From Richelia sp. CSU_2_1 (GTDB lineage: Bacteria > Cyanobacteriota > Cyanobacteriia > Cyanobacteriales > Microcoleaceae), in NCBI GenBank assembly GCA_012034575.1, contig JAAUPF010000142.1, forward strand, positions 1 to 18,312: a stretch of DNA of 18,312 nucleotides, given 5' to 3'. The notes beneath the pieces were generated by a model that worked only from the letters and a program-made list of their open reading frames with translations, made no database searches and was not told the origin of the DNA. The translations under genes were made by a program, and so were the position numbers. Shown in pieces: positions 14,226 through 16,709 of the stretch. Numbering within the stretch: the first letter of the stretch is position 1; each line of letters starts with the position of its first letter.

Positions 14226-16709
14226 ATGAATACCAGCGAACTAAAACGCGATAACAAAGGTGAAACTTTGGGAATTTCTAGCGGCATTATTCGCCTGAAG
14301 CCGCAGCAATACATTCATGTCATCGATAACAACACGGGCATTACCAGGCTAGAAGTCGGCCCGCAAACAATCACTTTGCGCGACCACGAACGGCTGATTT
14401 TAAGACCGGAACCGATGCTAATCGTGCCGCCGCGCTACTATTGCATTGTTGCTAATCCCGTCCTCCGTGATGCAGAAAATCAACCGATTGCTGACCCTCA
14501 CGGACAAATTAAATTGCGCTACGGCGATGCAGAAGTTCGCTTTGCTCAAGAACCTTTTGCCCTGTATCCGGGAGAAGAATTAGAGCAGGATGTGACTCGC
14601 TTGCAGGTTGTCGAAACCAATCAAGCATTGCGCCTCCGAGCACTGCGAGATTTTGCAGATACTCCTCCCATGCGGGGCAGCCACGGGGGGATTGCCCCTA
14701 CAGCAACGGCAGGAGAAAGTGAATCTGAAGGTCAAACAATTAATCGTTTGGCTGGGGATGAATGGCTGTTTGAAGGGCCGGGAACTTATTTGCCGCGCGT
14801 GGAAGTTGAAGTTGTAGAAACGGTGAAATCTGTAGTAATTAAACCGAATCAAGCTTTGCGCTTAATCGCCCGACAATCTTGTACTGACAGGCAAGGAAAC
14901 CGCCGCCGCGCTGGTGAAGAATGGTTGGTGAGGGATGAAGGTGCTTATTTGCCGGGAGTTGATGAAGCTGTTGTCAACATTATTAATGCTTGTGTTTTAA
15001 CGGAACGGAAAGCCCTGCATTTGAAGGCTAAACGCACTTTTACTGATGTTTTCGGGCGGCAGAGAAAAGCGGGCGATGAATGGTTGGTGACGTTTGAAGA
15101 TGCAGAAATTCACATTCCCGACGTGTACGAAGAAGTAGTAGGAGAAGTAGAAATTGCTACTTTGGGCGATCGTCAATGGTGTATTGTTCTCGATCCAATT
15201 GATGCGGATGGTAAGCCTCAATTGGGACTGAAAGAAGTCCGCCAGGGTCGAGCTTCTTTTTTCCTGCATCCGGGAGAATCTTTGGAAGGCGGGATTCAAA
15301 CAGTTTACGTTCTCAGCGAACAAGAAGCACTGTTATTGAGAGCGAAAGAAGCTTTTAATGAGGGAGAAAGCGACAATCTAGTTTCCCACCAACCGGGGGA
15401 TTTATGGATGATTTCCGGACCGCGCGATTACATTCCCCGCGTCGAAGTAGAAGTTGTGGAAAAGCGAAAAGCGATTCCTCTGGATAAGAATGAAGGCATT
15501 TACGTGCGCGATATCCAAACAGGAGAACTCCGATTAGTGGGCGGGCCGCAAGCATATATGCTGAGTCCTTACGAGGAACTTTGGGAAAAAGAATTGCCGC
15601 CAGTTGTTGAAGAATTGCTAGCACAAAAAAGCGATCCGATTTCCGATCGCGGAATGCAGCAATTGCGCGGTGTTGCCCACTCGGAAATGCAGGTTTTGCG
15701 GGATAAAACCAGGGCAGTTGTGTTCCACGTTCCCCAAAATTCCGCAGTGCAAATTCACGATTACAAAAATCGCACTGCCCGCACTGTATTCGGGCCGGAT
15801 TTGGTGATGTTGGGGCCGGATGAAGCGTTTACAGTTCTCAGTTTGTCTGGCGGCAAACCGAAAAAGCCGAATGCGATTAAATCTTTAGCTTTGTTGCTGG
15901 GTCCAGATTTTATGACTGATGTTTTTACTGTAGAAACATCGGATCACGCTCGCTTGCAAATTCAGCTATCTTATAACTGGTATTTCGATCTCGTGCGGCA
16001 CGACGAACAAGCGGCGGCAAAACTGTTTCAAGTTCCCGATTTTGTAGGAGATGCTTGCAAGGCAATTGCCTCTCGGGTTCGCGGTGCAGTTGCGGGAGAA
16101 AAGTTTGATGAATTCCACCGCAATTCGGCACGAATTATCCGCCATGCTGTATTTGGCGTCAGCGAAGACGGTCGGATCGGAGATGAATTTCGGTTTAAAA
16201 CTAACAGTTTGGTCATTACTAATATTGACATTCAATCAGTCGAACCGATCGATGAAGCAACGTTAAAAAGTTTGCAAAAATCGGTACAAATTGCAATTCA
16301 AATTACCACTGACGCTCAAGAAGCTGCTGCGAAGCACGATGCAGCCCGCATCGAACAAGAGGCAAAAGCTAGATTGGAAAGACAGGCAATTGTAGATAAG
16401 GGTGCGGCGGAATCCGAACGCAAAAATCTGTTAGAATTGCAGGCAGAAAATATTGCGATCGAATCTACCGGGCACGCGACAGCCGAAGCGAGGGCGAAAG
16501 CAGAAGCAGCGCGAATTCAAGGCGAATTAGCAGTGAATTTGGCACAGCAGGAAGCGGAAGCAGCCAGAATTCGCGCCGAGGGAGAATTGGCGCAAATGAG
16601 GGCCAGACAGGAAGCAGAATTAGCCCACCAACAAGCCCTAAGCACTCTAGAAATTGAGAAAGCCCAGCGAATGGCGGAAATTACCAGTGCGGAATTCCGG
16701 GAAAAGTAG
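14226..16709 (+). CDS. mvp: Major vault protein (MVP) homolog, full set of domains (MVP repeats, shoulder, cap-helix).
   Basis: It is collinear with metazoan MVP from the N-terminus: [22 protein letters not shown]...[13 protein letters not shown] (human [25 protein letters not shown]...VPPRHYCTVANPV). Near-exact blocks include [34 protein letters not shown] and [21 protein letters not shown]. The Ala/Glu-rich C-terminal coiled coil ([19 protein letters not shown] ... [22 protein letters not shown] ...) matches the cap-helix. Confidence 0.95.
   Translation: [827 protein letters not shown]

What the first reader, a model, noticed from the sequence alone, without database searches (positions are those of the whole stretch)
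14226..16709. Full-length major vault protein (MVP) homolog in a cyanobacterial context
The 827-aa product aligns end-to-end with eukaryotic MVP, and many blocks are near-identical to the human protein ([13 protein letters not shown][L/I]PR, [39 protein letters not shown], and the N-terminus ..YIHV.D.N......EVGP.T). In eukaryotes MVP self-assembles into the 78-mer vault shell (established knowledge). Bacterial homologs are rare, are usually attributed to horizontal transfer, and to my knowledge have not been characterised structurally or functionally. The gene sits in an unmistakably cyanobacterial neighbourhood (HIP1 octamers inside and around it, and heptamer repeats nearby). It has its own upstream dyad-symmetric elements and no vPARP, TEP1 or vault-RNA genes in the window. 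This raises the question of whether a bacterial vault-like particle is made and what it holds. Its level of identity to metazoan MVP is unusually high for a prokaryotic homolog.
Basis: partly seen in the sequence, partly recalled or inferred. Interest (0 to 1): 0.85.

Follow-up and report, generated by a model that had tools for sequence, protein, structure and literature searches.

The report
Known cyanobacterial vault gene, truncated copy
This is a real major vault protein gene in a Microcoleus-type cyanobacterium, but the family has been described in cyanobacteria since 2013, and this copy has lost its last ~60 codons where the contig runs into a patchwork of unrelated DNA that is probably an assembly error.

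Summary
The ORF 14226-16709 is a true major vault protein (MVP) ortholog. It has five Pfam vault/shoulder families and matches rat MVP at E = 3e-281 with 55% identity. It is native to a cyanobacterium: its upstream neighbourhood is syntenic with Microcoleus, its codon usage is host-like, and dN/dS is 0.07-0.10.

1. It is not full-length. Relatives are 860-928 aa. Here a 1-nt deletion in an A-run creates the stop, and MVP homology ends at 16748. The conserved cap-disk segment is therefore missing.
2. It is not rare or unusually similar. At least 67 species-level genomes carry it, and 54-55% identity to rat is normal for this clade (Daly 2013; Sokolskyi 2019).
3. No exact HIP1 octamer lies inside the ORF.

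From 16750 the contig switches to a Prosthecobacter-like fragment at 58% GC. An unassigned piece follows, then a 5'-truncated Microcoleus-like TMEM175 gene. Homopolymer indels cluster at two of the three seams.

The window is a whole MAG contig, so a chimeric, error-rich tail is the likeliest cause (about 70%). A real disruption is possible (about 25%).

No conserved partner genes or vault RNA were found. Shell assembly is inferred, not shown.

The parts
14226..16709 (+). Open reading frame as it stands (827 aa): an MVP ortholog with an N-terminal extension, repeat domains R1-R9, the shoulder and the cap helix. It ends at a frameshift-generated TAG.
14280..15899 (+). Repeat domains R1-R9 (aa 19-558). 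They align to rat MVP 5 to ~519. Pfam hits: Vault, Vault_2, Vault_3, Vault_4.
14661..14735 (+). Insert of about 23-25 aa (aa ~146-170, [25 protein letters not shown]) that rat MVP lacks. It is variable among the cyanobacterial relatives.
15900..16253 (+). Shoulder (SPFH-like) domain, aa 559-676.
   Evidence: PF11978, E = 8e-52, full model 1-118
16254..16706 (+). Cap-helix coiled coil, aa 677-827. It aligns without gaps to rat 647-797.
16702..16705 (+). A-run carrying a 1-nt deletion relative to the relatives (window GGGAAAAGTAGAGG; L002 and L008 GAAAAAGTAGAGG). This frameshift creates the stop codon.
16706..16748 (+). Out-of-frame remnant that still encodes [14 protein letters not shown], the start of the cap-disk segment. 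It is the last MVP-homologous DNA.
16749..16750 (.). Seam 1: the MVP gene breaks off and Verrucomicrobia-like DNA begins. Host and donor-type sequence share the imperfect microhomology TGGCA(C)AAGGC.
16750..17618 (+). Foreign block at 58% GC. It holds the 3' tail of a periplasmic sugar-binding protein gene (to 16936), a conserved intergenic palindrome, and an AAA_14 ATPase gene (from 17005) with at least two frame changes and a cut 3' end. It is collinear with a Prosthecobacter sp. MAG contig (L069 1561-2412, 73% nt identity).
17619..17815 (.). Unassigned GC-rich filler with no family hit in the frames tested. Its tetranucleotide correlation with the host is -0.09.
17816..18258 (+). 5'-truncated TMEM175/DUF1211 gene, 96% nt-identical to Microcoleus sp. 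B5-D4. It is missing about 52 N-terminal codons. Three single-base homopolymer insertions lie within 45 nt of the seam.
14057..14132 (+). Tandem pair of 38-nt units, each containing the palindrome GGTGCGCA-G-TGCGCACC, 95-170 nt upstream of the ATG. One copy is conserved upstream of MVP in L002. Possible operator or transcript-end hairpin.

Best explanation
Window 14226-16748 is the first ~95% of a major vault protein gene. It belongs to the already described high-identity bacterial MVP clade, found mainly in filamentous cyanobacteria.

Shown:
- It encodes the complete barrel part of a vault subunit: nine repeat domains, the SPFH-like shoulder and a 150-residue cap helix. It is 55% identical to rat MVP.
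- It is a long-resident, selected host gene.
- It stands alone, with no conserved neighbour.

Inferred: in the organism, the intact ~880-aa protein most likely self-assembles side by side through the cap helices and repeat domains into a vault-like hollow shell in the cytoplasm, as eukaryotic MVP does. Its cargo and purpose are unknown.

Shown for this sequence record: the gene is broken. One base is missing from an A-run, and from 16750 the contig continues with a Verrucomicrobia-like fragment, an unassigned piece and a cut Microcoleus-like TMEM175 gene. The conserved cap-disk segment (about 47 codons) is therefore absent.

Inferred: because the window is a complete MAG contig and homopolymer indels cluster at two of the three seams, the break is most likely a chimeric, error-rich contig end (about 70%). 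A biological disruption is less likely (about 25%).
For: Identity as MVP:
- Pfam domain set.
- E = 2.9e-281 to solved rat vaults, across residues 5-797.
- 55% identity.

Membership of the known bacterial clade:
- 93% identity to P0001, which JGI names 'major vault protein'.
- 78% identity to Allocoleopsis franciscana and to the Moorena producens 3L locus, taxa that I take from my own knowledge (not checked with the taxonomy tool) to be the current names of the Microcoleus sp. PCC 7113 and Lyngbya majuscula records listed by Daly 2013.
- All the high-identity bacterial sequences form one clade with 100/100 bootstrap.

Native, functional lineage:
- Synteny with Microcoleus.
- RSCU r = 0.81 and tetranucleotide r = 0.77.
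- dN/dS of 0.07-0.10 against seven relatives.

Truncation:
- Relatives are 860-928 aa.
- Frameshift and remnant frame.
- All blastn alignments end at 16748.
- The missing tail of P0001 aligns to mammalian MVP 797-857 at E ~1e-18, with the motif [21 protein letters not shown].NLF. This is the cap-disk region that starts at P804 (PMC12915596).

Chimeric tail:
- P0126 shows the window equals an 18312-nt contig of the MAG 'Richelia sp. CSU_2_1'.
- 16750-17618 is collinear with a Prosthecobacter MAG in its native gene order.
- GC is 0.58 and RSCU r is 0.06.
- The last piece is 96% identical to a Microcoleus gene that lies within 10 kb of MVP in none of the fetched MVP loci.
- There are three insertions within 45 nt of seam 3 and none in the next 340 nt. 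The MVP deletion lies 42 nt before seam 1. Genes in the contig body show no frameshifts.
- The 827-aa product is not on record as a protein although this contig's AAA ATPase is, which would fit a pseudogene call.

Assembly is plausible in a bacterial cytoplasm: human MVP forms vault-like particles in E. coli (PMC9778704).
Against: - Shell formation by any bacterial MVP has not been shown experimentally. No such paper was found.
- No vPARP, TEP1 or vault RNA lies in the window or near MVP in seven relatives, so any particle would differ in content from eukaryotic vaults.
- The artefact reading cannot be proven without reads. The tail begins and ends with Microcoleus-type DNA, which a real insertion-plus-rearrangement would also give.
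- The short microhomology at seam 1 fits illegitimate recombination as well as chimera formation.
- The two frame changes in the AAA_14 gene lie 140-190 nt from seam 2, so the indel clustering holds only for seams 1 and 3.
- The closest Prosthecobacter relative is only 73% nt-identical, so the frame changes in the AAA_14 gene cannot be called sequencing errors with certainty.
- The junction 30-mer was absent from the metagenome collection, which is uninformative either way.
Confidence: 0.8

Rival explanations
1. The break is biological. In this Microcoleus-type genome, the 3' end of MVP was replaced by a fragment of Verrucomicrobia-like DNA taken up from a neighbouring heterotroph, through illegitimate recombination plus a rearrangement that brought in the TMEM175 fragment. 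The gene is then a recent pseudogene, or it makes a cap-less MVP.
For: - Both ends of the 1.07-kb foreign stretch are Microcoleus-type DNA.
- There is microhomology at seam 1.
- The foreign genes are themselves degraded.
- The 827-aa product is absent from the protein records, as expected if the annotators called it a pseudogene.
- One other locus among the relatives also has a shortened MVP ORF of 485 aa.
Against: - There are three independent seams, each cutting a gene mid-way, within 1.1 kb at the very end of a MAG contig.
- Single-base homopolymer indels concentrate within ~45 nt of seams 1 and 3, and the flanking 340 nt and the 16.7-kb body are clean. Recombination does not produce that pattern.
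- Up to the seam the gene shows no decay: 827 codons are intact and dN/dS is 0.07.
- The TMEM175 gene is not near MVP in any relative.
Confidence: 0.22
2. The protein does not build closed vault shells in bacteria. It acts instead as another kind of SPFH-type scaffold or envelope-associated coiled-coil protein, which is what the database label 'colicin uptake protein / TolA-like' suggests.
For: - Most NCBI relatives carry that label.
- The shoulder is an SPFH domain, and SPFH proteins build membrane-attached cages (PMC12915596).
- No vault partner genes were found.
- Sokolskyi 2019 reports TolA-like similarity in the coiled coil.
Against: - The similarity to rat MVP is end-to-end over all nine repeats at 55% identity. 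The 150-residue cap helix has no indels, and in the relatives the cap-disk motif is nearly identical. That level of constraint on every assembly element is hard to explain without the same quaternary structure.
- No NCBIfam model supports the 'colicin uptake' name.
- By eye, the N-terminus has no obvious signal peptide or membrane segment. No predictor was run.
- Daly 2013 found the cyanobacterial proteins pass fold and lateral-docking criteria.
Confidence: 0.15
3. The MVP gene is eukaryotic contamination or a very recent transfer from a eukaryote into this contig.
For: The identity to animal MVP is very high. The contig demonstrably contains foreign pieces at its end.
Against: - The gene is embedded in 13 kb of conserved Microcoleus synteny.
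- Its codon and tetranucleotide usage are host-like.
- It has no introns.
- Orthologs sit in finished or near-finished cyanobacterial chromosomes of 6-10 Mb.
Confidence: 0.01

Closest known systems
Cyanobacterial MVP clade (Lyngbya/Moorena F4Y3B4, Oscillatoria acuminata K9TKX8, Microcoleus sp. PCC 7113 K9WB38; Daly et al. 2013, Sokolskyi 2019)
   Same: Same orthologous group. The window protein is 74-93% identical to members. It has the same domain set, the same ~55% identity to rat and the same stand-alone gene arrangement. It falls inside the single, 100%-supported bacterial clade.
   Different: This copy ends at the cap helix, because of a frameshift plus a junction with foreign DNA at 16748/16750. 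It therefore lacks the ~60-residue cap-disk tail that the others have.
Eukaryotic major vault protein (rat/human; PDB 4V60, 7PKZ, 9Z4W)
   Same: Nine repeat domains, shoulder and cap helix are collinear, at 55% identity and E = 3e-281. In full-length relatives the cap-disk motif is also conserved.
   Different: - The host is bacterial.
- It has a 14-18-aa N-terminal extension and a ~23-aa insert after R2.
- No PARP4/vPARP, TEP1 or vault RNA lies nearby.
- Assembly and cargo are untested.
Distant bacterial and archaeal MVP-like proteins (Myxococcota, Bacteroidota, Herpetosiphon; Asgard archaea)
   Same: They share the repeat, shoulder and cap-helix layout (PMC3762200; PMC12962969).
   Different: Identity to the window protein is only ~28-30% for the most distant full-length representatives (unnamed; assumed to belong to this group). 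Some have fewer repeats, or a band-7 domain that ordinary models can detect.
SPFH/band-7 cage formers (stomatin, flotillin, HflK/C, erlin, prohibitin)
   Same: The shoulder domain is an SPFH fold, followed by a coiled coil and a C-terminal cap. The cap architecture of vaults resembles that of erlin and flotillin complexes (PMC12915596).
   Different: Those proteins are membrane-anchored, lack the nine-repeat barrel, and build single cups on membranes, not free double shells.
TolA / 'colicin uptake protein' (the NCBI product name on most relatives)
   Same: Both have an Ala/Glu/Lys-rich coiled coil of similar composition.
   Different: No TolA or colicin-uptake family was among the Pfam hits at E <= 0.01, and NCBIfam returned nothing. 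There is no membrane anchor or TolA domain III. The name is an inherited misannotation.

Membership tests
Major vault protein (MVP) | N-terminal array of MVP repeat domains (R1-R9) | tested here: met
   Pfam finds Vault x4, Vault_2 x2, Vault_3 and Vault_4. There is a continuous alignment to rat residues 5-519.
Major vault protein (MVP) | MVP shoulder (SPFH-like) domain after the repeats | tested here: met
   PF11978 at E = 8.2e-52, covering model positions 1-118 of 118 at aa 559-676.
Major vault protein (MVP) | Long cap-helix coiled coil (~155 aa) | tested here: met
   aa 677-826 align without gaps to rat 647-797.
Major vault protein (MVP) | C-terminal cap-ring/cap-disk segment (rat P804-end) that closes the cap | tested here: not met
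   The ORF stops at the equivalent of rat ~798. Only 14 further codons survive, out of frame, and homology ends at 16748. The segment is present and conserved in full-length relatives. So the family assignment stands, but this copy is incomplete.
Major vault protein (MVP) | Self-assembly into a 78-subunit, D39 hollow shell | not testable with these tools
   This needs expression and EM. It is supported indirectly by the conservation of every assembly element, by dN/dS of 0.07-0.10, and by published docking models (PMC3762200).
Vault ribonucleoprotein particle (MVP + PARP4 + TEP1 + vault RNA) | Minor vault proteins (PARP4/vPARP, TEP1) encoded by the organism | tested here: inconclusive
   None is in the window. 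No recurrent partner family turned up in the 6-kb flanks of the fetched loci. Whole genomes could not be searched.
Vault ribonucleoprotein particle (MVP + PARP4 + TEP1 + vault RNA) | Vault RNA | tested here: not met
   No Rfam family, including vault RNA and Y RNA, matched in the window at E <= 1, nor at gathering score in seven related loci totalling 130 kb. A divergent RNA or one encoded elsewhere is not excluded.
High-identity bacterial MVP clade (cyanobacteria and a few other filamentous or giant bacteria) | Groups with cyanobacterial MVPs, with >=65% identity within the clade | tested here: met
   Identity to clade members is 65-93%. The clade is monophyletic with 100/100 bootstrap in an NJ tree.
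TolA / colicin uptake protein | TolA domains or a curated family model hit | tested here: not met
   No TolA or colicin-uptake family was among the Pfam hits at E <= 0.01. NCBIfam returned nothing at E <= 0.001.

The most novel reading that the evidence does not exclude
The bacterial MVP clade to which this gene belongs builds genuine vault shells in filamentous cyanobacteria. That would be a large protein organelle never yet seen in a prokaryote, made without PARP4, TEP1 or vault RNA and holding an unknown bacterial cargo. Studying it could reveal the ancestral function of vaults. A narrower variant is that the truncation here is real and the organism makes a natural cap-less MVP.
Probability: 0.5. 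Interest if true: 0.7.

Novelty: already known. Interest (0 to 1): 0.3.

Why it matters
Vaults are among the largest and most conserved particles in eukaryotic cells, and their function is still unknown. Bacterial orthologs at 55% identity offer a simple system for asking what a bare MVP shell does, with no PARP4, TEP1 or vault RNA encoded nearby. They also bear on where vaults came from.

That opportunity belongs to the whole clade and has been recognised in print since 2013. This window adds no new kind of gene. As recorded, it is a damaged copy lacking the cap-closing segment, so it would be a poor choice for expression.

The practical value here is a caution. The last 1.56 kb of this MAG contig is a patchwork of at least three unrelated fragments. 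The apparent 'full-length' ORF is produced by a frameshift next to a chimeric seam.

Tried and rejected
- **Eukaryotic contaminant:** rejected on synteny and codon usage.
- **Similarity limited to coiled coil:** rejected.
- **Conserved operon partners:** I clustered all ORFs of at least 70 aa within 6 kb of MVP across the fetched loci plus the window. The top family was a generic multi-domain sensor-kinase paralog in 18 loci. The S1 peptidase neighbour recurs in only 4 loci. No PARP, TROVE or NACHT partner emerged.
- **RNA partner:** Rfam found nothing in the window or in 130 kb of related loci.
- **Defence-system membership:** PADLOC has no hit for MVP.
- **Source contig by exact protein:** the MVP product and P0126 were not retrievable as loci. 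The source was instead inferred from the P0126 record.
- **Independent occurrence of seam 1:** the 30-mer is absent from the metagenome collection, which is uninformative.
- **Direction of transfer:** a rooted NJ tree was attempted with distant bacterial MVP-like outgroups. The two outgroups did not group together, so the root is unreliable.
  - Only two results are robust: the bacterial clade is monophyletic, and its internal diversity is low (at least 70% identity, against a 41% mean among eukaryotes).
  - That pattern fits one acquisition followed by spread among bacteria, as Daly 2013 proposed, better than it fits a cyanobacterial origin of eukaryotic MVP.
- **HIP1 as evidence of residency:** there are no exact octamers in the ORF, so I used codon usage and synteny instead.
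- **Structure prediction:** not run. A 55%-identical solved structure makes it redundant, and a monomer model cannot test assembly.
- **Origin of the CSU samples:** one paper search gave no direct hit, and I dropped it.
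Full report

Yes, in its core. An ATG-initiated ORF of 827 codons lies at 14226-16709 on the + strand. Pfam assigns it Vault (four stretches), Vault_2 (two), Vault_3, Vault_4 and MVP_shoulder, each far above the curated cut-off. 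Against all solved structures it matches rat and human major vault protein at E ~ 1e-279 to 1e-281. One continuous alignment runs from query 19-826 to chain 5-797. BLASTP gives 55% identity and 73% positives over 819 columns. The similarity covers every repeat domain, the shoulder and the cap helix, so the coiled-coil-artefact refutation fails.

**2. Is it really cyanobacterial?**

Yes.
- Window 3698-16748 is collinear at 72-88% nt identity with Microcoleus sp. Aus8_D2 (L003).
- hemC, the S1 peptidase and MVP are collinear with Oscillatoriaceae Prado104 (L002).
- MVP codon usage correlates with the other host genes as well as they correlate with each other (RSCU r = 0.81, GC3 = 0.42, tetranucleotide r = 0.77).
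- Against seven relatives, dN/dS is 0.07-0.10 with dS of 0.56-1.9. The gene has therefore been under strong purifying selection for a long time in this lineage.

The window has seven exact GCGATCGC octamers and none is inside the ORF.

The window is an entire 18312-nt contig of an NCBI MAG labelled 'Richelia sp. CSU_2_1'. This follows from record P0126, whose 221-aa length, 91% identity over the unshifted 80% of the reconstructed query, and 18312-nt contig match the window's AAA ATPase ORF. By synteny the contig is Microcoleus-like.

**3. It is not full-length.**

All 120 best database relatives listed are 813-932 aa, almost all 860-900 aa. 57 homologous ORFs in fetched loci are 860-928 aa with a median of 880, apart from one 485-aa outlier. 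The closest relative, P0001 (93% identity, 890 aa), aligns to the window protein residue for residue up to …EFREK and then continues [44 protein letters not shown]….

In the window, the frame shifted by one base reads [14 protein letters not shown] directly across the 'stop'. The DNA alignment shows one base missing from the A-run at 16702-16705: window GGGAAAAGTAGAGG against GAAAAAGTAGAGG in L002 and L008.

After …GCAATGGCACAAG at 16748, every one of the 60-odd blastn alignments to MVP loci ends.

The missing tail is not dispensable linker. The P0001 tail aligns to mammalian MVP 797-857 at E ~1e-18 with a near-identical motif. Recent cryo-EM shows that the 39 chains leave D39 symmetry at P804 and weave the C13 cap disk from exactly this segment (PMC12915596).

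**4. What follows the break?**

- **16750-17618:** 58% GC, with alien codon and tetranucleotide usage (r = 0.06 and 0.11).
  - The block encodes the last ~60 codons of a periplasmic sugar-binding protein, an intergenic palindrome, and an AAA_14 ATPase gene with at least two frame changes and a cut 3' end.
  - The best protein relatives are 79-80% identical and include a Prosthecobacter sp. MAG.
  - On that contig the native order is Peripla_BP gene then AAA_14. The window aligns to it collinearly from exactly 16750 to 17618 at 73% nt identity.
- **17619-17815:** unassigned, GC-rich.
- **17816 onward:** 96% nt-identical to a TMEM175/DUF1211 gene of Microcoleus sp. B5-D4, lacking ~52 N-terminal codons.
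  - It carries three single-base homopolymer insertions, all within 45 nt of the seam and none in the next 340 nt.
  - In Microcoleus B5-D4 that gene sits next to peptidoglycan-binding and transposase genes, not MVP.
  - No TMEM175 gene lies within 10 kb of MVP in any of the fetched MVP loci.

So the last 1.56 kb of the contig holds three seams, each cutting a gene mid-way. Indels cluster at seams 1 and 3. The 16.7-kb body shows no frameshifts against its relatives.

I infer a chimeric, low-quality contig end at about 70%. De Bruijn-graph joins made through erroneous reads would give exactly this error pattern. A real insertion plus rearrangement remains possible at about 25%, because both flanks are Microcoleus-type and seam 1 shows short microhomology.

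The 827-aa product is not on record as a protein although this contig's AAA ATPase is. That fits a pseudogene call by the annotators.

**5. What is it and how does it work?**

It is a member of the high-identity bacterial MVP clade. The species-representative genome scan found 67 loci.
- Most are filamentous cyanobacteria: Microcoleus, Oscillatoria, Moorena, Symploca, Laspinema, Calothrix, Nostoc, Aulosira, Planktothricoides and Spirulina.
- Prochloron and a Xenococcaceae MAG also carry it.
- So do a few Anaerolineae, Thiomargarita and Parabeggiatoa.

The exhaustive representative search found 3510 clusters at E <= 1e-3 and 464 at E <= 1e-30. Its best representative is only 53% identical to the query. 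In other words, at 50% clustering the cyanobacterial proteins merge with other MVPs.

Neighbour clustering over the loci found no recurrent partner. Rfam found no RNA in the window or in 130 kb of related loci. PADLOC and NCBIfam have no model for the protein. The common label 'colicin uptake protein' is an inherited misnomer.

The best-supported mechanism is inferred from homology, from the gap-free cap helix, from the conserved cap-disk motif in the relatives and from strong purifying selection. On that basis the intact protein self-assembles laterally into a vault-like hollow shell in the cytoplasm, with unknown cargo. Human MVP can assemble into vault-like particles in E. coli (PMC9778704), so a bacterial cytoplasm is permissive. 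I put shell formation at roughly 0.5-0.65. It has never been shown.

The upstream tandem palindromes at 14057-14132 are real and non-random. One copy is conserved upstream of MVP in L002. They may be an operator or a transcript-end hairpin; this was not resolved.

**6. Origin.**

In a rough NJ tree, all the high-identity bacterial sequences form one clade (100/100 bootstrap). Its internal identity is at least 70%, against a mean of 41% among six named eukaryotes from different supergroups. Anaerolineales and the giant sulfur bacteria sit beside or inside the cyanobacteria. The outgroups did not behave, so the root is unreliable.

The shallow bacterial radiation, and its disagreement with organismal phylogeny, fit a single acquisition followed by spread between bacteria (Daly 2013). 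They fit a cyanobacterial origin of eukaryotic MVP less well (Sokolskyi 2019). A prokaryotic or Asgard origin of the family as a whole has also been proposed (PMC12962969). The direction remains open.

**7. Comparison with what is known, and verdict.**

Cyanobacterial MVPs, at ~54% identity to rat and predicted to fold and dock like MVP, were published in 2013 (PMC3762200). They were revisited in 2019 and 2023, and JGI annotates them as 'major vault protein'. The family-level finding is therefore already known. The window copy is 93% identical to existing entries.

The apparent full-length ORF is a frameshift-terminated, 3'-truncated copy sitting next to a probably chimeric contig tail.

Residual interest lies in the clade as an untested experimental system, not in this locus. 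Interest: 0.3.

Noticed in passing
window 1-1500 (TPR ORF 21-1106): The 5' end of the contig is also compositionally atypical. GC is 0.48-0.49, GC skew is -0.24 to -0.37, RSCU r against host genes is 0.15 and tetranucleotide r is 0.43. It encodes a Gln/Tyr-rich TPR_12 repeat protein that starts at the contig edge. This could be repeat-protein bias or a second foreign or chimeric end.
   Followed up: partly
window 5245-8055 (- strand): An RNA-repair-like cassette. A T4-type RNA ligase (6970-8055) and a PNKP kinase/phosphatase (5898-6746) lie on the same strand, and a Uma2-family endonuclease (5245-5898) directly abuts the PNKP gene. The Uma2 protein hits the PADLOC candidate system PDC-S03. The whole block is syntenic in Microcoleus L003.
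   Followed up: partly
window 10362-11282 (- strand): Probable Panacea toxin-antitoxin pair. A SocA_Panacea antitoxin (10800-11282) abuts a 145-aa ORF (10362-10799) that hits NCBIfam MAG6450_fam and PADLOC NsnC. A 72% nt match exists in Hormoscilla (L062), close upstream of its MVP gene.
   Followed up: partly
window 13766-13905: A hairpin element of about 140 nt (38-nt outer arms, 21-nt inner arms) lies just after the S1 peptidase stop codon. It matches Microcoleus L008 2732-2833 in both orientations, downstream of that genome's MVP. It is probably a small dispersed palindromic (MITE-like) repeat.
   Followed up: partly
window ~16965-17003 and L069 1758-1795: In the Verrucomicrobia-like block, the intergenic region just upstream of the AAA_14 gene holds a palindrome, TTTGAGnAATTTAAACTGGCAGTTTAGATTnCTCAAA. 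It is conserved in the Prosthecobacter MAG although the overall nt identity is only 73%. It is likely a regulatory site of the AAA_14 gene.
   Followed up: no
window 9193-10194 (+) and 1483-2523 (-): Two sizeable host-like ORFs (333 and 346 aa) have no Pfam or NCBIfam hit, and the 333-aa ORF has no PADLOC hit either. The first is conserved at 72% nt identity in Microcoleus L003.
   Followed up: no
whole window; L053; L056; L040-L041: Some taxonomic labels look doubtful.
- This MAG is named Richelia sp., but the contig is syntenic with Microcoleus.
- An 'Actinomycetota bacterium' MAG (L056) carries an MVP 78% identical to this one, which is typical of cyanobacteria and suggests mis-binning.
- The Anaerolineae, Thiomargarita and Parabeggiatoa copies (66-75%) may be real inter-phylum transfers.
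   Followed up: no
related loci (length list): One related locus also has a shortened MVP reading frame (about 485 aa to the first stop). Broken or mis-assembled MVP copies are therefore not unique to this contig. I did not identify which locus it is.
   Followed up: no
window 12935-13765 (+): The trypsin-like S1 peptidase immediately upstream of MVP recurs next to MVP in only 4 of the clustered loci, counting the window itself. It weakly resembles the protease part of PADLOC 'RT-Protease_XI'. This is probably coincidental synteny within Microcoleus-type genomes.
   Followed up: partly
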